Positions 5,221-16,017 are shown, numbered from the stretch's first letter. The stretch: DNA of 20,338 nt from Candidatus Thalassarchaeaceae archaeon (GCA_030747675.1 JASLKH010000031.1:1-20338); one strand, 5' to 3'. Program-made: numbers and translations. The notes: a model not told the origin generated them from the sequence alone.

Positions 5221-6771
5221 ATGATTAAGAGGGGGCATTTTAGGTCAGGCCCTCTAGGGGCGTGGCTTATGCTGGCAGCGGAAGAAAGTAGAGGGGCGAA
5301 TGCTACAAGTTTGAAATCAGAGGTTTCAATTCAACTACCTGTAGCTGAACAATCAAAAATAAATCGGGAAATTGCAGATACATATCATCGATACCACATA
5401 GATGCTATTGAAACTGAAGACCGACAAAAAATTCCTCGTAGATTCAATGTGAAAGTTGGTAAATTTGGATTGGCTAAACTACTTGCTAAGGAGTTTTTCA
5501 AGTACTTTGGTCATTGGGATGTTGTCTTTTCCAGACCTTGTACATATGGGGTTTTCAGTGGCCCAGTTGGTGGATTCTCCCCTCGGCCAGACTTATGTGT
5601 CGGATGTTTACGGTGTGAAATTCAACATCCTGAATTTGTGAAAGTCTCACCTAATCCAGAGCTTGCTAAACTTGGAGATTCATACCTCACTAGCAAGCAT
5701 ATTGCTAGAATTAATGAAGAATCCAAAAAAGGTTCAGTCCCAGTACGTGGTCAAGGATATCGTGGCAAATTTGGGGGACCAGGTTTTGATCAGATGTTTA
5801 CAGACATGTCTGAAATCGTACGGCCAAGTCGTGATGGGATTCACGGTCGTGAATTAATTGGTACAAGTGTAGATCTTGGTTACAAACCAATGTACCTTTC
5901 ATTTCATAAAAATGGAAGTTTGCTTAATTCGCCGAAGATGATGACGATTCAAGTTCCATTCGTATTTGATGCACCGCCCTCATCAGTTGATCAGATTGTA
6001 TCCCGGATTTATGCTCAAGCAGCAGAAGATATCGACACATTAGCGTTCTTGCCCAATGAAACTGTTACTGCGCTAGGACTTTCTTCAGCACACGTGGTAC
6101 CAATGATCCCTCCTAATGAAATCGGTTCAATTGAAAGTCATGGAAATGGCACGAGAATGGTTGAAATGACCACTTGGAGCCCTGAAGCATGGGCTGTTGT
6201 CAAGGACCATCCCTTACTTGTATCTGTCAGATTGCCATTCATTGGAGATTGGAAATCAAGGCTAATCGAAATGGTCAACTCAGGTGTATCTATAATCCGA
6301 CTTGTTGCAGACCACCATGGCCTAAGTGACCAAGGTGAATTTGTGATGGATTTATTCCAAGAAGCACATTTCACTTTGGTGAAGAATGGTAATCGTGACG
6401 AAGTCACCCTCATGGGTTCAGGAGGAATTGCTGGTGCAGATCATCTACCAAAAGCAATCATCACAGGAATGGATGCCGTAGGATTAGATCATCCACTCCT
6501 CATTGCAATGCAGGCACATCTCAGTGGGGATTTGCGGGCACGTGATGTAGCGGATGTTTTGTTACCAAAAAAACTGGACACAGATTGGGGAGTTCAACGA
6601 ATTTTGAATTTATCTTGCTCATGGCGTGATCAGCTTCTAGAAATTCTCGGCGCAATGGGGATTCGCGAGGTGCGTCGTCTGAGAGGAGAAATCGGGCGTG
6701 CAATGTGGTGTGGCCACCTAGAAGAAGAAGCGTTTGGTGATATTGATGGATTTATTGGAGGTGGGCATTGA
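5221..6771 (+). CDS. Glutamate-synthase-related barrel protein with N-terminal ferredoxin-like Fe-S domain; catalytic motifs degenerate
   Basis: RPCTYGV...CVGCLRCEIQHP; PVRGQGY..GFDQMFTDMSEIVRP; C-terminal GSGGIAGADHLPKAIITGMDAV and IREVRRLRG resemble GltB2. Lacks MSYG, TGEGG, QGAKPG and the C-terminal Cys cluster. Start uncertain (5221 or 5269). Confidence 0.8.
   Translation: MIKRGHFRSGPLGAWLMLAAEESRGANATSLKSEVSIQLPVAEQSKINREIADTYHRYHIDAIETEDRQKIPRRFNVKVGKFGLAKLLAKEFFKYFGHWDVVFSRPCTYGVFSGPVGGFSPRPDLCVGCLRCEIQHPEFVKVSPNPELAKLGDSYLTSKHIARINEESKKGSVPVRGQGYRGKFGGPGFDQMFTDMSEIVRPSRDGIHGRELIGTSVDLGYKPMYLSFHKNGSLLNSPKMMTIQVPFVFDAPPSSVDQIVSRIYAQAAEDIDTLAFLPNETVTALGLSSAHVVPMIPPNEIGSIESHGNGTRMVEMTTWSPEAWAVVKDHPLLVSVRLPFIGDWKSRLIEMVNSGVSIIRLVADHHGLSDQGEFVMDLFQEAHFTLVKNGNRDEVTLMGSGGIAGADHLPKAIITGMDAVGLDHPLLIAMQAHLSGDLRARDVADVLLPKKLDTDWGVQRILNLSCSWRDQLLEILGAMGIREVRRLRGEIGRAMWCGHLEEEAFGDIDGFIGGGH
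6757..6763 (+). promoter_or_regulatory. Shine-Dalgarno site GGAGGTG for the second glt gene (TGATG stop/start overlap at 6769-6773)
   Basis: Complementary to the archaeal 16S 3' end; 7 nt before ATG 6771. Confidence 0.8.
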
Positions 6772-8102
6772 TGGCTGCTAAAGAATGGAAGAAACCAAGC
6801 CCAAAATTATTGGAAAAGACACAACATTTGATGCATGATGGATTTCATCAAAGGGCGTCTCCCGATACACCCTATGGCTTGCCTGAAGCGCTTGGTGATG
6901 CTCGCTGGACGGATGAATTAATTGCTTCAACATGGTATATGGCTGAAACGGGAGAATGTCCACCTCATCTAAACTACAAAACTGGTAAGAGTGGAGGGGG
7001 TTTTGATCGTCTTGAATTCAAAGAAGTACCCAAAGAAAATCAATTATCTGAAGACTCTGAAGTAGATATTTCTCTGAATTTAAACAGAAGGGGTGATAAT
7101 CGACGTGAGTTGAAAATTGACATCCCATGGTATGGAGGGGGGATGTCATATGGTTCTGTTTCTGTAAACGTAATGATGTCGAGAGCATTGAATGCAAAAA
7201 ACTGGAACACACTCATGTCGACAGGAGAGGGTGGATATCCTGATCAATTATACGCTTGTAAAGAGAATGTAATTACACAAGTTGCAACAGGATACTTTGG
7301 TGTTGAAGAGAAATCAATCCAAGCCGCACCTATTATTGAGTTCAAGTACGCTCAAGGGGCAAAGCCAGGATTAGGTGGGCATCTTCTTGCTTCTAAAGCT
7401 GGAGATGAAGTTGCAAAGATGCGTGGTAGTGTACCTTTCGTGAGTCTTTTCAGCCCATTCCCGTTCCATTCCACATATTCTGTGGAAGATCACATGAAAC
7501 ACCTTGATTGGATTAAAACAATCAATCCTACGGCATTAATGTCCGTGAAAGTAAGCACACCACACGATGTAGATATGGTCGCAGTTGGTTCTTACTACGC
7601 AGGTGCACATATCGTGCACCTGGATGGTAGTTTTGGTGGAACTGGTGCAGCACCTGAAATCGCCAAGAAGAATATTGCCATGCCCATCGAATTAGCAATT
7701 CCCAAGGTACACAAATTCATGCTAAAAGAAGGGGTGCGAGATAATGTCACAATTATCGCTAGTGGCGGAATTCGTACTGCTGACGATATTGCAAAGGCTA
7801 TTGCCCTAGGGGCAGATGGCTGCGTACTTGGAACCAGTGATTTAGTGGCGATGGGTTGTACTCGATGCTCTAATTGTGAAGGGGGGCCATCAGGACGCGG
7901 TTGCCCATGGGGATTGACTACAACAGATACTGAACTACAAGAATGGGTTCAGCAAGCATGGGGGGCAAACAGGTTGGACAATTACTACAAAGCAGTATCA
8001 GAAAGAATTCGAGAAATTCTCAGAGAATTAGGACTTAATGAAATTGGTCAACTACGAGGCCGGACTGATTTACTTCGATATATTTCAGGAGGTGAGGCTT
8101 AA
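6771..8102 (+). CDS. gltB2: Glutamate synthase FMN-binding subunit (archaeal GltB2-type)
   Basis: GGMSYG, TGEGG, QVATGYFGV, KYAQGAKPGLGGHL, GGTGAAP, IASGGIRTADDIAKAIALGAD and the Fe-S motif GCTRCSNC..GCPWG. Start set to ATG 6771 (overlaps the upstream stop, SD present). Confidence 0.9.
   Translation: MAAKEWKKPSPKLLEKTQHLMHDGFHQRASPDTPYGLPEALGDARWTDELIASTWYMAETGECPPHLNYKTGKSGGGFDRLEFKEVPKENQLSEDSEVDISLNLNRRGDNRRELKIDIPWYGGGMSYGSVSVNVMMSRALNAKNWNTLMSTGEGGYPDQLYACKENVITQVATGYFGVEEKSIQAAPIIEFKYAQGAKPGLGGHLLASKAGDEVAKMRGSVPFVSLFSPFPFHSTYSVEDHMKHLDWIKTINPTALMSVKVSTPHDVDMVAVGSYYAGAHIVHLDGSFGGTGAAPEIAKKNIAMPIELAIPKVHKFMLKEGVRDNVTIIASGGIRTADDIAKAIALGADGCVLGTSDLVAMGCTRCSNCEGGPSGRGCPWGLTTTDTELQEWVQQAWGANRLDNYYKAVSERIREILRELGLNEIGQLRGRTDLLRYISGGEA
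8088..8096 (+). promoter_or_regulatory. Shine-Dalgarno site GGAGGTGAG for the third glt gene (TAATG overlap at 8100-8104)
   Basis: Full GGAGGTGA match 5-6 nt before ATG 8102. Confidence 0.85.
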
Positions 8103-10753
8103 TGTTTCAAAATCGACCCGATTTTGAGGCACCTCTCATGAATATTATATCCAGGCCCCGTGGAGATACACCCACAAATCCGGACGCTGTGTTGAAAGCT
8201 AGAAAACAACTGACTGATTCACTACCTTCTATTGAAATGCATGAAGATGATGCTGCAGAAGGTGGATGTGGAGTTGTGGGATTAGCATGCGAAATTCCAG
8301 TTGCTGGCCGACATCTATTCAGATCGTTGGAACAAATGCGAAACCGAGGGAATGGAAAAGGAGGTGGTGTAGCAATGGTTGGATTAAACTCCACGCAATT
8401 TGGCACTACACAAAGTGTGTTGGAAGGTAGTTATCTAATTGCAATTGCCTGGGTAAACGAAGGATTTAGAGAAGAAATTGAGGCGAAATATATTCATTCT
8501 TCCTTTGAAGTTGATCACATTTATGATGTGCCTACTCTCGAGGATTGGACTACGCTTTCAGCACTTGAAGTATGTCCCCCTGACGTGACTTGCTACTGGG
8601 TTCGGCCAACGGAATCTGGTATTGCTGAAATGTTCAGTGAAACAAGTTTGAATCCAGGTGACTTTGAGGATGAAGATGCAATCCATTCCGAGTATGTTTA
8701 TCGCAACACACACAAATTGAATGTGGAATATTATGCGGAAAATGGTAGGGCTGATGCTTTCGTTCTAAGCCACGGTAGAGACATGTTAATCCTGAAAATT
8801 GTGGGCTATGCTGAAGATGTCATCAAGTACTATTGTCTGGACAATGTTACTGCACACGTTTGGATTGGGCATCACAGATATCCAACTCGAGGACGAGTAA
8901 CACACCCAGGGGGTGCACACCCATTTGGTCAAGGAATTGACGTTGCATTGGTACATAATGGTGATTTCAGCAATTATGTTTCAGTCAAGGACTACTTGGC
9001 ACAACGAGGAATGGAACCGCTTTTCTTCACAGATACAGAAGTTGCTGCACTTGCATTTGACCTCCACCTTCGAGTCTATGATTATCCAATGGAATATCTA
9101 ATTGAATCCTTAGCACCTACAAGTGAGCTTGATTTTGTCATGTTACCCGATGAAAAGAAAGCAATTTATGAGGCCATTCAAAAAACTCATATTCATGGAT
9201 CCCCAGATGGGCCTTGGTTCTTTATTATAGCCCAAGGTGCAGGAAAAGGACACCATCGACTAATTGGAATTACAGATACCAGTATGCTTCGTCCACAAGT
9301 ATTCTCTTACCAACGTGGAGAGGTTGCCATAGCATTCTGTGCTTCCGAAAAACAAGTGATTGATGCTGTTATGGAAAGTCTTGCTTCCGAAGACAAACGA
9401 TTCTGGCGAAGATGTGATCGGTATTGGAATGCCCGAGGTGGGTCCTATACAGACGGGGGAGCATTTCTATTTGATGTCATGAAAAAAGATGGAGGAGGTT
9501 TCGAGCTTGTGATGACTGACAAATTTGGTAGGTTAGTTGACACTCATCCTTCCGGCGATTTCGAAATAATGGATGCTGCCATGACGAGTGAAGTTGTTTG
9601 GCCTGAAAGTCAAGACGCTGAGGAATGCTTCATGACTTGCTCAGAATCGTTACTCACAATGGATTGGCCCGCTGCAAGAGCAATGCTTTCGGAAATTCAT
9701 ACTCAGTCACAACAGCGAGACAGAATGAAATCTCTTGATTTGTTACGTCTTTTACTGAATAGACAATACTCCACCGGCAATCTACGTCGTAGTCGCTGGC
9801 TCGATCATGTCGAAGATTCGATTAATGAAATTTTGATAGGGAGTAAATCATCACCATGTGCATCACTAGTAGGTCAAACTGGACCTGGACACCAACCTAA
9901 CCCTGAAAATGATAATCAGGCAATTGTGGTCGATGCTCGACCGTATCCAATCGAAGGTAGCAATAGTTTAGCTAGAGAATTAATTTCATTATACGAAAAA
10001 GGATGGAAAAATTTCCATGTTATCATGTGTCAAGGTCATCGATTCATTGGCAATGGATTTGGAATGAATACCGATGATGTAAGAATTGATGTGTACGGAA
10101 GTGTAGGGGATTACTTAGGTAGTGGAAATGATGGTATGACTATCCACATGCATGGAAATGGTCAAGACCAAATTGGACAAATTCACAAAAGGGGTACTAT
10201 GGTCATACATGGTGATGTAGGCCAATGTTATGGTTATGGGGCAAAAGGTGGCAGATTATTCGTGCTAGGCAATGCTGCTGGTCGCCCAATGATTAATTCT
10301 GTAGGCAATCCGAAACTTGTGATTAACGGTACTGCACTTGATTACCTTGCAGAATCATGTATGGCAGGAGATCCACTTGACGGAGGAGGATTTGTACTAA
10401 TTAATGGCATTGAATTTACCCCTGAAGGTGAAATTATGGCCATGGAAACTCCATATCCTGGCGGGAATTTATTCAGCCTCTCAAGCGGAGGGGCCATTTA
10501 TGTCCGAGATCCACACAACCGACTTTCAAGTAGTCAACTAAACGGTGGTGATTTTGTTGATTTAACAGAAGAAGATTGGTCTATTCTTGAACCTCTATTG
10601 GTTGAAAATGAACACCACTTCGGAATCCCACTTGCGAGATTACTAACTGTGGATGGAGAATTATGTGCTCCTGCTTCGGTCTATAGGAAGATTATCCCTC
10701 TTAAGAATAAGGCACTTTCAGTTGAAGATGGTTGGGCTGCCAAGCATGATTGA
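8102..10753 (+). CDS. Glutamate synthase class II glutamine amidotransferase domain fused to GXGXG beta-helix domain (GltB1-GltB3 fusion)
   Basis: Ntn nucleophile context EGG-CGVVG after a ~55-aa leader; RNRGNG, GHHRYPT, HPF, HNGD; C-terminal GXGXG repeats (GHRFIGNG, GDYLGSG, GQCYGYGAKGG, GNAAGRP). Confidence 0.9.
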   Translation: MFQNRPDFEAPLMNIISRPRGDTPTNPDAVLKARKQLTDSLPSIEMHEDDAAEGGCGVVGLACEIPVAGRHLFRSLEQMRNRGNGKGGGVAMVGLNSTQFGTTQSVLEGSYLIAIAWVNEGFREEIEAKYIHSSFEVDHIYDVPTLEDWTTLSALEVCPPDVTCYWVRPTESGIAEMFSETSLNPGDFEDEDAIHSEYVYRNTHKLNVEYYAENGRADAFVLSHGRDMLILKIVGYAEDVIKYYCLDNVTAHVWIGHHRYPTRGRVTHPGGAHPFGQGIDVALVHNGDFSNYVSVKDYLAQRGMEPLFFTDTEVAALAFDLHLRVYDYPMEYLIESLAPTSELDFVMLPDEKKAIYEAIQKTHIHGSPDGPWFFIIAQGAGKGHHRLIGITDTSMLRPQVFSYQRGEVAIAFCASEKQVIDAVMESLASEDKRFWRRCDRYWNARGGSYTDGGAFLFDVMKKDGGGFELVMTDKFGRLVDTHPSGDFEIMDAAMTSEVVWPESQDAEECFMTCSESLLTMDWPAARAMLSEIHTQSQQRDRMKSLDLLRLLLNRQYSTGNLRRSRWLDHVEDSINEILIGSKSSPCASLVGQTGPGHQPNPENDNQAIVVDARPYPIEGSNSLARELISLYEKGWKNFHVIMCQGHRFIGNGFGMNTDDVRIDVYGSVGDYLGSGNDGMTIHMHGNGQDQIGQIHKRGTMVIHGDVGQCYGYGAKGGRLFVLGNAAGRPMINSVGNPKLVINGTALDYLAESCMAGDPLDGGGFVLINGIEFTPEGEIMAMETPYPGGNLFSLSSGGAIYVRDPHNRLSSSQLNGGDFVDLTEEDWSILEPLLVENEHHFGIPLARLLTVDGELCAPASVYRKIIPLKNKALSVEDGWAAKHD

Positions 10754-13644: not shown

Positions 13645-16017
13645 ATGCACGGCAGCGAAGGGAATCGTTCAGGTAATGTCCTGATGATTCTCATTGTGAC
13701 ATTATTGGCCACGAGTGTAGCACCATCACCAGTTTCTAGTCAAACCACAAATTTCCCAACTGGGCCGGGTCTCGATTGGAACCTACCTACTGAACATCAC
13801 ATATTCCTAAATGGTACGCAGGGGAATGAAGGGTTAGATCGAATTCACCCCCCAAATACTGGCTACCCTGGTGGTGAAGTCATATTCCCCGGGCATGGAT
13901 TCCCAGTCTCACTTGTTTCTGCTTCAACAAATGCTGCAACTCAACCAACTAACCTCAAAGGCAACTTATCTGTTGATTTGTTTGCAGGCTTGGAAGTTGA
14001 AGATTCTACAACATGTAAGGCCACTAACATCATTCCAGGTGGCACAGCACTACTCAGTTCCCAAACAACATTCTATGCCACAGTTCGAATTGGTGATGTC
14101 ACCGTCATGGACAACCTCCCGAGTGATTCAATTCCAATGGAGTATGACTGGAACAAAGCACACAAGTTCACAATTACAACTGAAATTGATGAAATGCTTG
14201 ACGTAGGGGAATCAATCACGCTTGATGTATCGGTCGTGCACGATTGCGAATCCAGACCTGGTCGGCTTTTCTGGGGCACTTATGACCTCACTAGTGGATT
14301 GATAATAAAAGCAGATATGCTGACACCTTCACTGAACTCAACGGTGGACCAAAACGGTATTGCTCAAATTGAGTTTACTCCCCATTCGCCATTTGGAAGT
14401 GATGACTATTCAAACATCATCATTGATATCATTGGCCCACTAGATGGATGGGACCAAGGAGTTCACTACAGAATTATGCCGGAAGAAGAAATGAGAGTGG
14501 AGCACCTTGAATTTCCCCCTCATGGTACACGCCAAACTGATTCTGGAAGCATGGCATGGACTTGGGTCACGAACAATACAATGAAACCAGGGATGTATGT
14601 CATGGATGTTTGTATCCAAACCTCAGATGGGTTATTTGATGCAGGTCTGCTTGAATCTACGGACCCCCCTTGTCATATAATCGGTGTTCTCAGATTTGAA
14701 GTAATAGAAACTGCGGGCACTTGGGTTGCATCAGGATGGTTTACCATCATACCAATACTCTCCACATTGGGGCTCATAGGGTGGTTTTTCAGCACGAGAC
14801 TTCCACCTTGGCCGGCACTAGTTGTAATTGCCATTCTCATGCTTTCTGTACTTGGAACATTGGTGGCATTACCAGATATAGGTCCAGATTCACAGCAAAA
14901 TGAAGCGGCGGCACCTAACTTCACACTACTTACCCATGGTGACGGTAAAGAAAGTCTGGGGAGTTTAACAAATGGAAAGGATGCCTTGGTATTGGGAGTA
15001 TTCTTAGCCGGATCACCCGCTTCCGATCTTCAAATGGAAGATTTTTCAATCGCCAAGGAAAAATTAGGTGACTCAGTTTCATTTGCTCAATTAATTACTG
15101 GAGATTCTGTCGAGATGTATGATGGCGATACTCATGCCATGAAATTAAATGGTTCTTGGCCATTATTAATTGATGAAAGTGATGGAGCCGTTGCTAAAAT
15201 GCTCCCAACTGGAATTGCAGATGGAGTTGTAATTATTGATTCTGCAGGGTTCATAGTTAGTTGGAAACCCGCTAGCATGAGCCCTGTCGATTTAGAAAAA
15301 TCAATTGAAATAGCTGACTCAGGAGGGGGGAGGAGCCCATTTGAACTCCTCAGTATCAGTAGCCTTATTGTAATGCTCCCCTTACTTATTTTAGGCTTAC
15401 CACGTGAGCGAATTGAGGCACCGGAAGATGTTTTAATTCCAGCTGCAGGTTGGATTGGAACTTTCGGTGCGGCAGCAACTGGGTACTTGGTGTGGGCTCT
15501 TCCTGTGGCCATACTTGTTGGAGCAGCTGGTGCCATGTTTTGGACATGGTTAACATTAGCACTCATAACCTGGATGGCTTGGCAGGCCATAGCCATGATT
15601 ATCTGGCAAATTGTGCCAGAAATTGATTTCATTGCAACAAAAATCCACTCAATACTACCAGGATCATACAGAAAGTGGCGGAGTCAGAAAATGTTCACCT
15701 GGGATATGCGAATGGGGCACTGGTTTGCATGGTTATCATGGATTGCTATGCCGACTCTACTCGCACAAGGTGTAGGTTCGAGAATCGCAGGAGGTGGTTG
15801 GGGCTATCTCTTAGGCCCAATTTTCCTTGCTTTTTTCACTATTATTGCAGGTTTCACTACCCTATTGTTCCGTTTAGTAGCATCTTGGGGAGGTCCAATT
15901 TCAAGACTTGGTGGTATGTTGACTAGGCCAGTTATGGTCCGAACATGGGGGGTATTCACCGCAGGAATTAGTTTCTGGATGATTCTTTGGATTATGACAA
16001 ACACTCTATCCAATTAA
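13645..16017 (+). CDS. Exported multi-domain membrane protein: signal peptide, extracellular domain, redoxin (thioredoxin-fold) domain lacking CxxC, and a C-terminal ~6-TM CcdA-like region
   Basis: APNFTLL..GKDALVLGVFLAGSPAS...WPLLIDESDG...VVIIDSAGFIV is a redoxin pattern; C-terminal TM region has VMLPLL and GHWFAWLSWIAMPTLL at CcdA-like positions. Confidence 0.65.
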   Translation: MHGSEGNRSGNVLMILIVTLLATSVAPSPVSSQTTNFPTGPGLDWNLPTEHHIFLNGTQGNEGLDRIHPPNTGYPGGEVIFPGHGFPVSLVSASTNAATQPTNLKGNLSVDLFAGLEVEDSTTCKATNIIPGGTALLSSQTTFYATVRIGDVTVMDNLPSDSIPMEYDWNKAHKFTITTEIDEMLDVGESITLDVSVVHDCESRPGRLFWGTYDLTSGLIIKADMLTPSLNSTVDQNGIAQIEFTPHSPFGSDDYSNIIIDIIGPLDGWDQGVHYRIMPEEEMRVEHLEFPPHGTRQTDSGSMAWTWVTNNTMKPGMYVMDVCIQTSDGLFDAGLLESTDPPCHIIGVLRFEVIETAGTWVASGWFTIIPILSTLGLIGWFFSTRLPPWPALVVIAILMLSVLGTLVALPDIGPDSQQNEAAAPNFTLLTHGDGKESLGSLTNGKDALVLGVFLAGSPASDLQMEDFSIAKEKLGDSVSFAQLITGDSVEMYDGDTHAMKLNGSWPLLIDESDGAVAKMLPTGIADGVVIIDSAGFIVSWKPASMSPVDLEKSIEIADSGGGRSPFELLSISSLIVMLPLLILGLPRERIEAPEDVLIPAAGWIGTFGAAATGYLVWALPVAILVGAAGAMFWTWLTLALITWMAWQAIAMIIWQIVPEIDFIATKIHSILPGSYRKWRSQKMFTWDMRMGHWFAWLSWIAMPTLLAQGVGSRIAGGGWGYLLGPIFLAFFTIIAGFTTLLFRLVASWGGPISRLGGMLTRPVMVRTWGVFTAGISFWMILWIMTNTLSN

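What the first reader, a model, noticed from the sequence alone, without database searches (positions are those of the whole stretch)
5221..8102. Split glutamate synthase with two complementary, sub-functionalised GltB2 paralogues
Seen: two tandem, translationally coupled barrel genes. Gene 1 keeps an N-terminal ferredoxin-like domain and the GltB2 scaffold but lacks MSYG, TGEGG, QGAKPG and the C-terminal Cys motif. Gene 2 has all these catalytic/FMN/Fe-S motifs but no ferredoxin domain. Known: single-chain archaeal GltB2 (e.g. Methanocaldococcus MJ1351 type) carries both ferredoxin and active barrel, and large bacterial GltB contains a non-catalytic central barrel domain. Inference: a heteromeric enzyme in which gene 1 is a dead-barrel electron-input/scaffold subunit. 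No gltD lies in the window, so the electron donor is unexplained. I do not know of a characterised enzyme with this architecture, but similar operons may be annotated elsewhere.
Basis: partly seen in the sequence, partly recalled or inferred. Interest (0 to 1): 0.7.

Follow-up and report, generated by a model that had tools for sequence, protein, structure and literature searches.

The report
Three-gene glutamate synthase with dead barrel
This ocean archaeon (Marine Group II) carries a widespread but biochemically unstudied three-protein form of glutamate synthase, in which an iron-sulfur-bearing, catalytically dead copy of the flavin barrel partners the live one and probably sits where the "central domain" sits in the classical enzyme.

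Summary
Three genes overlap by one base at each junction. Gene 1 (5269-6771) is a GltB-type barrel that has lost every substrate and FMN motif except GSGG, and it carries a four-Cys remnant of a ferredoxin domain. Gene 2 (6771-8102) is a complete FMN/Fe-S synthase barrel. Gene 3 (8102-10753) fuses an Ntn glutamine amidotransferase to a GXGXG domain.

Gene 1 is not decaying. It is under purifying selection, and the same three-gene order recurs in 80 of 80 loci examined, spanning archaea and many bacterial phyla. Gene 1 and gene 2 are fused in more than 1,000 proteins. Other variants add an FAD-linked oxidase/Fe-S module at gene 1's N-terminus.

An AlphaFold model of a natural fusion superposes as one body on the central plus FMN domains of Azospirillum GltS (Z 30, 627 residues). 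Gene 1 is therefore most likely a scaffold and electron-entry subunit. The electron donor is unknown: no gltD was found, and ferredoxin is my guess.

One puzzle remains. In the Poseidoniales sampled, the cluster and glutamine synthetase never co-occur.

This scan has noted the same architecture before in other genomes. I found no paper that characterises it. I rate it a new variant of a known kind.

The parts
5269..6771 (+). Gene 1: Fe-S plus dead GltB2-like barrel subunit (500 aa from Met17; an alternative ATG at 5221 would give 516 aa)
   Evidence: ORF. The 500-aa database form and the homologue starts favour 5269. The family is conserved at 47-82% identity from archaea to Chloroflexota. AF2 model pLDDT 89, pTM 0.87.
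5539..5631 (+). Gene 1 Cys motif: C91-x18-C110-x2-C113-x2-C116-x3-H120-P121, predicted to bind a single [4Fe-4S] cluster (remnant of a two-cluster ferredoxin domain)
   Evidence: The four Cys are invariant in 110 homologues. They align with C42, C65, C68 and C71 of the full ferredoxin domain of fusion P0388, and H120 aligns with C75.
5653..6693 (+). Gene 1 barrel (residues about 129-475), homologous to the GltB FMN barrel but without MSYG, TGEGG, QGAKPG, GGTGA or the Fe-S Cys. It carries its own invariant motif TDMSEIVRPxRDGIHGRE
   Evidence: hhalign against the gene 2 family, E 2.6e-36. VIA-align to GltS alpha residues 788-1182: Z 23.0, 309 residues aligned. Invariant columns.
6771..8102 (+). 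Gene 2: live FMN/Fe-S synthase barrel (GltB2 type, 443 aa), with no ferredoxin domain
   Evidence: PF01645 E 5.5e-87. Matches PDB GltB FMN domains at E 1e-48. All catalytic motifs are invariant in 27 orthologues.
7857..7904 (+). Gene 2 Cys cluster C363-x2-C366-x2-C369-x8-C378-P: four Cys where canonical GltB has three (C-x5-C-x4-C)
   Evidence: Invariant in 27 orthologues. Alignment with Bacillus GltB shows the extra Cys and a 4-residue insertion.
8102..10753 (+). Gene 3: fusion of an Ntn glutamine amidotransferase (about residues 56-470), a variable linker (about 480-640) and a GXGXG beta-helix (about 640-883). Catalytic Cys56 (8267-8269) follows a 55-residue propeptide
   Evidence: Pfam GATase_6 plus GXGXG. 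FwdC-like GXGXG. Invariant AEGGC56, HHRYPT, HNGD and TDTE in 25 orthologues.

Best explanation
The three genes encode one glutamine-dependent glutamate synthase complex of a non-canonical, split and permuted architecture.

Gene 3's Ntn amidotransferase domain hydrolyses glutamine. The ammonia passes to gene 2's barrel, where 2-oxoglutarate is aminated and the imine is reduced by FMN.

Gene 1 is a catalytically dead paralogue of that barrel. It packs against gene 2 in the place taken by the central domain in classical GltB, so it acts as a scaffold and probably helps build the interface with the amidotransferase. Its N-terminal single [4Fe-4S] cluster relays electrons from an external donor to gene 2's Fe-S cluster and FMN. 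In this archaeon the donor is most likely a ferredoxin reduced by 2-oxoacid:ferredoxin oxidoreductase.

Shown here: the homology, the motif losses, the conservation, the synteny, the fusions and the predicted domain arrangement. Inferred: complex formation in this organism, absence of flavin in gene 1, the electron path, the donor, and glutamate as the product.
For: 1. Gene 2 is a complete GltS synthase domain. Gene 3 keeps all Ntn-amidotransferase catalytic motifs and a GXGXG domain.

2. Gene 1 is homologous to gene 2 over 333 columns (E 2.6e-36) but has lost seven of the eight strand-end motifs that build the FMN/2-oxoglutarate site, including a deletion of about 42 residues spanning QGAKPG.

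3. The order gene 1 - gene 2 - gene 3 is conserved in 80 of 80 loci wherever the contig reaches far enough. These loci span Poseidoniales, MGIII, Chloroflexota, Acidobacteriota, Chlamydiota, Deinococcota and others. More than 598 species genomes carry gene 1's signature motifs. No other neighbouring gene is conserved.

4. Fusions exist in nature: gene 1 + gene 2 fusions of about 970-1000 aa (1,311 hits at E<=1e-30, including cultured Desulfatirhabdium butyrativorans), and single chains of 2,508-3,016 aa carrying FAD-oxidase, Fer4, dead barrel, live barrel, GATase and GXGXG.

5. In about 30 loci from many phyla, an FAD_binding_4/FAD-oxidase_C plus Fer4 module is joined to the N-terminus of the gene 1 homologue, ahead of gene 2 and gene 3. 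This points to that end as the electron entry.

6. The AF2 model of the fusion P0388 (pLDDT 87.6, pTM 0.91) superposes in one piece on A. brasilense GltS alpha residues 445-1184, which are the central plus FMN domains. Z is 30.0, rmsd 3.5 A, 627 residues aligned. The best single-barrel hits reach Z<=24 with about 300 residues aligned.

7. Purifying selection: pN 0.11-0.25 against saturated pS 0.75-0.85, similar to gene 3.

8. The dead barrels (gene 1 plus fusion barrel 1) form one clade (SH-aLRT 99). The live barrels of this system group with canonical GltB FMN domains (SH-aLRT 96), so the duplication is ancient.

9. The genome has a 2-oxoacid:ferredoxin oxidoreductase. No GltD-type Fer4_20 was found.
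Against: There is no biochemical or structural experiment on any member of this family.

Gene 1 retains GSGG at strand 7 and has gene-1-specific invariant His, Arg and Asp residues (H344, H350, H392, R185, R188, D189). These hint at a ligand site, not a mere scaffold.

The domain arrangement comes from an AF2 model of a homologue only 36% identical to gene 1. AlphaFold may have learnt the arrangement from GltS structures.

By sequence, gene 1 is no closer to the central domain than gene 2 is (E 2.3e-7 against 7e-8).

In the Poseidoniales sampled, the cluster never co-occurs with glutamine synthetase. A classical GS-GOGAT role therefore does not fit this organism.

The genome is only 78% complete, so a GltD-like or other partner could be missing from the assembly.
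Confidence: 0.6

Rival explanations
1. Gene 1 is an active redox enzyme and not a dead scaffold. Its barrel would bind a flavin or another cofactor at the conserved His/Arg/Asp site and itself oxidise the physiological donor (for example NAD(P)H or a small metabolite). Its Fe-S cluster would pass the electrons on, so that gene 1 replaces GltD functionally.
For: GSGG at strand 7 is retained. A block of gene-1-specific invariant polar residues exists: TDMSEIVRPxRDGIHGRE, H344, H350, H392. No separate donor gene is conserved next to the trio. The fold is that of FMN-dependent barrels.
Against: Seven of the eight strand-end motifs of the FMN/substrate site are lost, and loop 4 is deleted. The phosphate-binding Arg/Thr after GGI and the GT at strand 8 are replaced; strand 8 now reads LD.P, with an acidic residue. 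Many lineages add a separate FAD dehydrogenase module upstream, which would be redundant if gene 1 were itself the dehydrogenase. The GltS central domain also keeps an SG at the same strand without binding flavin (established knowledge of GltS structures).
Confidence: 0.13
2. The complex is not a glutamate synthase in vivo. It would be a related amidotransferase-coupled enzyme acting on another substrate, for example an N-methylglutamate-synthase-like (MgsABC) enzyme or a reductive aminase of another 2-oxoacid. Alternatively, in these GS-less archaea it would serve mainly to dispose of imported glutamine.
For: Gene 3's amidotransferase and GXGXG domains are remote from those of GltB; the best matches are PurF/GlmS and FwdC. 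QGAKPG is followed by LGGH rather than EGGQ. Calidithermus, Thermalbibacter and a Terriglobia MAG carry the trio in addition to a canonical 1,500-aa GltB. In Poseidoniales the trio is found only in genomes without glutamine synthetase.
Against: Gene 2 keeps every synthase-site motif and aligns with solved GltS structures over the whole domain. Redox Fe-S clusters in genes 1 and 2 fit a reductive reaction, unlike the redox-neutral Mgs reaction (the Mgs chemistry is from my own knowledge). Gene 2's clade is sister to canonical GltB FMN domains.
Confidence: 0.15
3. Gene 1 is only a structural subunit. Its Fe-S cluster would be structural or regulatory, and electrons would reach gene 2's cluster directly from ferredoxin, as in plant and cyanobacterial Fd-GltS.
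For: Fd-GltS needs no extra redox subunit (established knowledge). The window-type gene 1 has lost one ferredoxin cluster and the barrel's own Cys cluster, both of which the fused relatives keep. This looks like a shrinking wire.
Against: The four remaining Cys are invariant in 110 sequences. Donor modules always attach at this end.
Confidence: 0.1

Closest known systems
Canonical glutamate synthase alpha subunit (GltB/GlsF; solved as 1EA0, 6S6S, 7MFM, 1OFD/1LLW), with or without GltD
   Same: It has the same four functional pieces: an Ntn amidotransferase, a non-catalytic barrel, an FMN/Fe-S barrel and a GXGXG beta-helix. Gene 2 aligns with the FMN domain at E 1e-48. The model of the dead-plus-live barrel pair superposes on the central plus FMN domains (Z 30, 627 residues).
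   Different: Here there are three polypeptides instead of one, and the order is permuted: dead barrel, live barrel, then amidotransferase fused to GXGXG. The dead barrel carries an Fe-S domain and is much closer in sequence to the FMN barrel than the central domain is (E 2.6e-36 against about 1e-7). It does not reach the PF04898 cut-off. Gene 2 has four Cys rather than three at its cluster. No GltD was found.
Split 'archaeal-type' glutamate synthases (GltB1/GltB2/GltB3 as separate genes, e.g. the Methanocaldococcus MJ1351 type; Thermotoga/Geobacter GSU1235-1239 type with a pyridine-nucleotide oxidoreductase and an Fe-S protein)
   Same: The domains are on separate genes, and a ferredoxin-type Fe-S domain lies N-terminal to a GltB2 barrel. 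The Geobacter operon is described in PMC2725144.
   Different: Those systems are described with one GltB2 barrel that is both ferredoxin-bearing and active, and with separate GltB1 and GltB3 genes (from my own knowledge; not tested here). Here there are two barrels with divided roles, and GltB1 is fused to GltB3.
N-methylglutamate synthase MgsABC (GltB1-, GltB3- and GltB2-like subunits)
   Same: It is also a three-gene system built from the same domain families.
   Different: It has no second, dead barrel and its reaction is redox-neutral (from my own knowledge). No Mgs-specific model matched in NCBIfam. Membership was not otherwise testable here.
Dihydropyrimidine dehydrogenase (1GT8) and other Fe-S-wired FMN barrels
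   Same: Both use a chain of [4Fe-4S] clusters that feeds an FMN TIM barrel. DPD appears among the fold matches (Z 15.8-16.4).
   Different: DPD has a different domain order and no amidotransferase. The relationship is only that of the general fold.

Membership tests
Glutamate synthase synthase/FMN domain (Pfam PF01645; GltB2, COG0069) | Profile match above the curated cut-off over the whole domain | tested here: met
   Gene 2 scores 292.8 bits over profile positions 56-368. Gene 1 scores only 22.7 bits (cut-off 20.4) over positions 261-315, so it is a member by homology (hhalign E 2.6e-36) but a marginal one by the profile.
Glutamate synthase synthase/FMN domain (Pfam PF01645; GltB2, COG0069) | Catalytic and FMN motifs MS(F/Y)G, TGEGG, QGAKPG, GGTGA(A/S)P, GG(I/L)R | tested here: met
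   Met for gene 2: all are invariant in 27 orthologues. Not met for gene 1, which retains only GSGG.
Glutamate synthase synthase/FMN domain (Pfam PF01645; GltB2, COG0069) | Cys ligands of the Fe-S cluster after strand 8 | tested here: met
   Gene 2 has C363, C366, C369 and C378 (four Cys; canonical GltB has three). Gene 1 has none there.
GltB central domain (Pfam PF04898) | Profile match above the cut-off | tested here: not met
   No gene 1 match was found in the genome search. The only sub-threshold hit lies in gene 2 (21.6 bits; cut-off 22.8). hhalign of the gene 1 family against 16 central domains gives probability 93.5%, E 2.3e-7, no better than gene 2 against the same domains.
GltB central domain (Pfam PF04898) | Non-catalytic alpha/beta domain packed N-terminal to the FMN barrel in the same spatial relation | tested here: inconclusive
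   Met in an AF2 model of a natural fusion homologue (6s6s_A residues 445-1184, Z 30.0, 627 aligned). This is a prediction, and it was not made on the window's own split proteins.
Class II (Ntn) glutamine amidotransferase | N-terminal nucleophile Cys plus the R-x-x-T, HNG(D/E) and (S/T)D(S/T)E motifs | tested here: met
   C56 (after an invariant AEGG), HHRYPT, HNGD and TDTE are invariant in 25 orthologues. Pfam GATase_6 E 1.7e-7. Whether the 55-residue propeptide is cleaved cannot be tested with these tools.
GXGXG domain (PF01493; GltB C-terminal domain / FwdC) | Profile match above the cut-off | tested here: met
   37.3 bits (cut-off 32.5) at residues 654-810 of gene 3. The closest solved relative is FwdC, 5t5i_C.
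NAD(P)H-dependent glutamate synthase (GltB + GltD) | A GltD-type beta subunit (Fer4_20 plus pyridine-nucleotide oxidoreductase) | tested here: not met
   PF14691 was not found in the 78%-complete genome. No such gene is conserved next to the trio in 80 loci.
2x[4Fe-4S] bacterial-type ferredoxin domain | Two CxxCxxCxxxCP motifs (eight Cys) | tested here: not met
   Gene 1 keeps only four Cys, equivalent to Cys 4-7, with His at the position of Cys 8. No Fer4 Pfam hit. Fused relatives keep all eight.
Glutamate synthase (enzyme activity EC 1.4.7.1 / 1.4.1.x) | Glutamine + 2-oxoglutarate + 2 e- gives 2 glutamate | not testable with these tools
   This needs an enzyme assay.

The most novel reading that the evidence does not exclude
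The gene 1 family would be the little-diverged living relative of the enigmatic GltB central domain. One ancient duplication produced a dead barrel and a live barrel. Classical GltB arose when that pair came to lie between the amidotransferase and GXGXG halves of a gene-3-like protein, which is exactly where gene 3 has its variable linker.

On this reading, the dead barrel's original job was to carry the Fe-S wire. The trio would then be the core of a third, modular class of glutamate synthase whose electron-input module is exchangeable: none or ferredoxin, an FAD-linked oxidase, and possibly ETF.
Probability: 0.35. Interest if true: 0.75.

Novelty: new variant of a known kind. Interest (0 to 1): 0.6.

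Why it matters
Glutamate synthase is a textbook enzyme of nitrogen assimilation with two well-studied electron-donor classes (NAD(P)H and ferredoxin). Its central domain has no assigned function or known origin.

The trio described here is present in hundreds of species across both prokaryotic domains, including some of the most abundant planktonic archaea. It is annotated only as 'glutamate synthase-related' or 'hypothetical'.

If the proposed mechanism holds, three things follow:
- It adds a structurally distinct class of the enzyme with a pseudo-enzyme subunit as electron conduit.
- It offers a testable account of where the central domain came from.
- It raises a physiological question: what is a GOGAT for in Marine Group II archaea that appear to have no glutamine synthetase? 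The answer bears on how these organisms process organic nitrogen in the ocean.

Tried and rejected
Gene neighbourhoods were taken from the search for related loci and analysed by script instead.
- A search for a conserved fourth gene (an electron donor) around 80 loci found none. The best extra cluster occurred in only 17 loci.
- Gene 1 gave nothing in NCBIfam, nothing in a PDB sequence search, and nothing new in the ESM Atlas.
- Orthology of gene 1 to the central domain was tested by hhalign and by a tree. It is unresolved. The scores equal those of gene 2, and the tree is a three-way split with long branches, so I do not claim it.
- Classical dN/dS could not be computed because synonymous sites are saturated. 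I report pN and pS instead.
- 'Recent local duplicate' is rejected: gene 2 groups with canonical FMN domains, not with gene 1.
- 'Decaying pseudogene' is rejected.
- ETF as a linked donor: the genome's etfBA genes sit next to an HMG-CoA synthase-like gene on another contig, not near the trio, so there is no support for it here.
- I considered D-2-hydroxyglutarate as the fuel for the FAD-oxidase variants only as speculation. An earlier follow-up in this scan (e1-2194522) reported that idea as not supported. I did not test it.
- Seven literature searches found no paper describing this architecture. The library is incomplete, so this does not prove there is none.
- Locus L113 (unpublished genome G075) was not used.
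Full report
**What is there**

The window comes from a 1.68-Mb, 78%-complete genome of a Marine Group II archaeon. It belongs to Poseidoniales, family Thalassarchaeaceae, judging from the names of the nearest database proteins. Between a PAP2-type membrane protein gene and a PrsW-type protease gene lie three + strand genes.

The stop of gene 1 and the ATG of gene 2 share one base (TGATG at 6769-6773). The stop of gene 2 and the ATG of gene 3 do the same (TAATG at 8100-8104). A GGAGGTG motif lies just upstream of both downstream starts. Gene 1 probably starts at Met17 (5269, 500 aa), as in the database copy and most homologues.

**Gene 2 and gene 3**

Gene 2 (443 aa) is a complete glutamate synthase FMN/synthase domain. 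It matches PF01645 at E 5.5e-87 and solved GltB chains at E 1e-48. MSYG, TGEGG, QGAKPG, GGTGAAP and GGIR are all invariant in 27 orthologues. Its Fe-S motif has four Cys (C-x2-C-x2-C-x8-CP) where Bacillus GltB has three.

Gene 3 (883 aa) fuses an Ntn amidotransferase to a GXGXG beta-helix through a poorly conserved linker of about 160 residues. The nucleophile Cys56 follows an invariant AEGG, which implies a 55-residue propeptide. HHRYPT, HNGD and TDTE are invariant.

**Gene 1**

Sequence libraries barely recognise gene 1. Profile-profile comparison nevertheless shows that it is homologous to gene 2 along the whole barrel and the pre-barrel segment (probability 99.9%, E 2.6e-36, 333 columns).

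The same alignment shows what it has lost. The MSYG, TGEGG and Q..ATG.FGV equivalents are gone. A stretch of about 42 residues that holds QGAKPG and the following Arg and SPFPFHS loop is deleted. GGTGAAP and the Fe-S cysteines are gone too. Only GSGG at strand 7 remains.

In exchange, gene 1 has its own invariant signature (TDMSEIVRPxRDGIHGRE), several invariant His, and an extremely conserved C-terminal helix pair.

At the N-terminus, four invariant Cys (C91, C110, C113, C116) match Cys 4-7 of a two-cluster ferredoxin domain that fused relatives still have in full. His120 stands where Cys 8 would be. The prediction is therefore one [4Fe-4S] cluster.

The AF2 model is confident (pLDDT 89, pTM 0.87). 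Its longest structural match is the FMN domain of Azospirillum GltS (residues 788-1182, Z 23.0, 309 residues aligned). Generic FMN barrels such as IMPDH and flavocytochrome b2 score alongside it.

**It is not a decaying copy**

Within the genus, nonsynonymous differences are 0.11-0.25 per site while synonymous sites are saturated (0.75-0.85). Gene 3 shows much the same, and gene 2 is somewhat tighter. Archaeal and Chloroflexota members are still about 50% identical.

**It belongs with genes 2 and 3**

In all 80 loci retrieved, gene 2 and the same GATase-GXGXG fusion follow in the same order wherever the contig continues. The loci span Poseidoniales, Marine Group III, Chloroflexota, Acidobacteriota, Chlamydiota, Deinococcota (Calidithermus roseus), Thermalbibacter longus, Actinomycetota, Gemmatimonadota and Methylomirabilia. 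No other neighbouring gene is conserved.

Gene 1 and gene 2 are fused into one protein of about 980 aa in a very large family: 1,311 hits at E<=1e-30, including cultured Desulfatirhabdium butyrativorans.

In a further set of loci from many phyla, an FAD_binding_4/FAD-oxidase_C module with an Fe-S domain is joined to the N-terminus of the gene 1 homologue, again followed by gene 2 and gene 3. Two bacterial metagenome proteins of 2,508 and 3,016 aa hold all of these domains in one chain. The place where donor-type modules attach is the Fe-S end of gene 1.

**Where the dead barrel sits**

I modelled a natural fusion (P0388) with an alignment of 117 fusions. The result had pLDDT 87.6 and pTM 0.91. 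I compared it with about 48,000 PDB representatives.

The top match is the Azospirillum GltS alpha chain, aligned in a single superposition from residue 445 to residue 1184. That range covers the central plus FMN domains. Z is 30.0, rmsd 3.5 A, and 627 residues are aligned. Every other hit aligns one barrel only (Z<=24, about 300 residues).

The dead barrel is therefore predicted to stand to the live barrel as the central domain stands to the FMN domain.

Two caveats apply. This is a prediction on a homologue 36% identical to gene 1. AlphaFold has also seen GltS structures.

**Evolution**

A maximum-likelihood tree of barrels gives three groups. The first is the central domains, on a long branch. 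The second is all dead barrels, meaning gene 1 plus fusion barrel 1 (SH-aLRT 99). The third is all live barrels, within which gene 2 plus fusion barrel 2 are sister to canonical GltB FMN domains (SH-aLRT 96).

Gene 1 is thus not a recent copy of gene 2. The duplication is at least as old as the split between this system and classical GltB.

Whether the central domain descends from the same duplication cannot be decided. hhalign scores of the central domain against gene 1 and against gene 2 are alike (E 2.3e-7 over 247 columns; 7e-8 over 156 columns), and the tree is unrooted with long branches. One duplication is the more economical account, because both sister lineages have a dead barrel in the same position. 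I rate that at about one in three.

**How it most likely works**

Glutamine is hydrolysed on gene 3. The ammonia reaches gene 2, where 2-oxoglutarate is aminated and reduced by FMN. Gene 1 holds the assembly together in the central-domain position, and its cluster passes electrons to gene 2's cluster.

No GltD-type gene was found in the genome. A 2-oxoacid:ferredoxin oxidoreductase is present, so reduced ferredoxin is my best guess for the donor. The genome's ETF genes lie elsewhere, next to an HMG-CoA synthase-like gene.

The steps from 'complex forms' onward are inference. Overall confidence is 0.6.

**An unexplained point**

Among 41 Poseidoniales genomes, gene 1 was found in 22 and a type II glutamine synthetase in 18. 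One genome had neither, and none had both. The glutamine synthetase is a GlnII: NF041605 at E 3.5e-116, solved GS-II at E 8.5e-96.

Glutamate dehydrogenase is nearly universal, in 38 of 41 genomes. Its absence from this assembly is probably due to incompleteness.

These genomes are related and many are incomplete, so the pattern is a lead and not a statistic. If it is real, the enzyme cannot be running a GS-GOGAT cycle here. The archaeon may depend on glutamine from imported peptides, with the enzyme moving amide nitrogen into glutamate.

Bacterial carriers differ. Calidithermus, Thermalbibacter and a Terriglobia MAG have glutamine synthetase, a canonical GltB and the trio. A Parachlamydiales chromosome and an Anaerolineales MAG have no canonical GltB.

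**Novelty**

Databases call these proteins 'glutamate synthase-related', 'alpha-hydroxy-acid oxidizing protein' or 'hypothetical'. Seven full-text searches found no description of the architecture; the Geobacter and Thermotoga split types are different.

This scan has already flagged the same trio in several other genomes. Earlier follow-ups reached the same reading, including the glutamine synthetase exclusion. I read those notes after my own tests.

I class the finding as a new variant of a known kind: it is real, widespread and uncharacterised, but it is built from known domains and has a predictable core chemistry.

Noticed in passing
Genome-wide; relatives G001-G040: In 41 Poseidoniales genomes, the three-gene cluster and a 338-aa type II glutamine synthetase never co-occur: 22 have the cluster only, 18 have GS only, 1 has neither, 0 have both. 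In the four same-genus genomes that have it, the glutamine synthetase gene lies next to the glutamate dehydrogenase gene.
   Followed up: partly
window 7857-7904: Gene 2's Fe-S motif has four invariant Cys (C-x2-C-x2-C-x8-CP), against three in Bacillus GltB. This suggests a [4Fe-4S] cluster in place of the classical [3Fe-4S] cluster.
   Followed up: partly
window 8102-8269: Gene 3 has about 55 residues before the invariant AEGG-Cys56 nucleophile. A long propeptide must therefore be removed, or translation starts at Met46, for the amidotransferase to be active.
   Followed up: no
P0238 (2,508 aa), P0254 (3,016 aa); loci L118-L171: There are single-chain bacterial proteins and four-gene operons in which an FAD-linked oxidase/Fe-S module precedes the dead barrel, the live barrel, GATase and GXGXG. 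They form a second, widespread variant with a built-in candidate electron donor.
   Followed up: partly
A5 (fusion family), barrel 1: In the fused relatives, the dead barrel still has the full two-cluster ferredoxin domain, a Cys motif after strand 8 and a second ferredoxin domain before barrel 2. The window's form is a pared-down version of a longer Fe-S wire.
   Followed up: partly
window 5221-5268 and relatives L007-L010: Several same-genus orthologues have an in-frame TAG upstream of the conserved Met-Leu start. The 5221 ATG of the listed ORF is therefore probably not the start of gene 1.
   Followed up: partly
G000 contig C89 (L173 1408-3072): The etfB-etfA pair lies downstream of an HMG-CoA synthase-like gene and upstream of a carboxylesterase-like gene. 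It is not linked to the glutamate synthase cluster.
   Followed up: yes
window 13645-16017: This 790-aa ORF has no Pfam or NCBIfam match.
   Followed up: no
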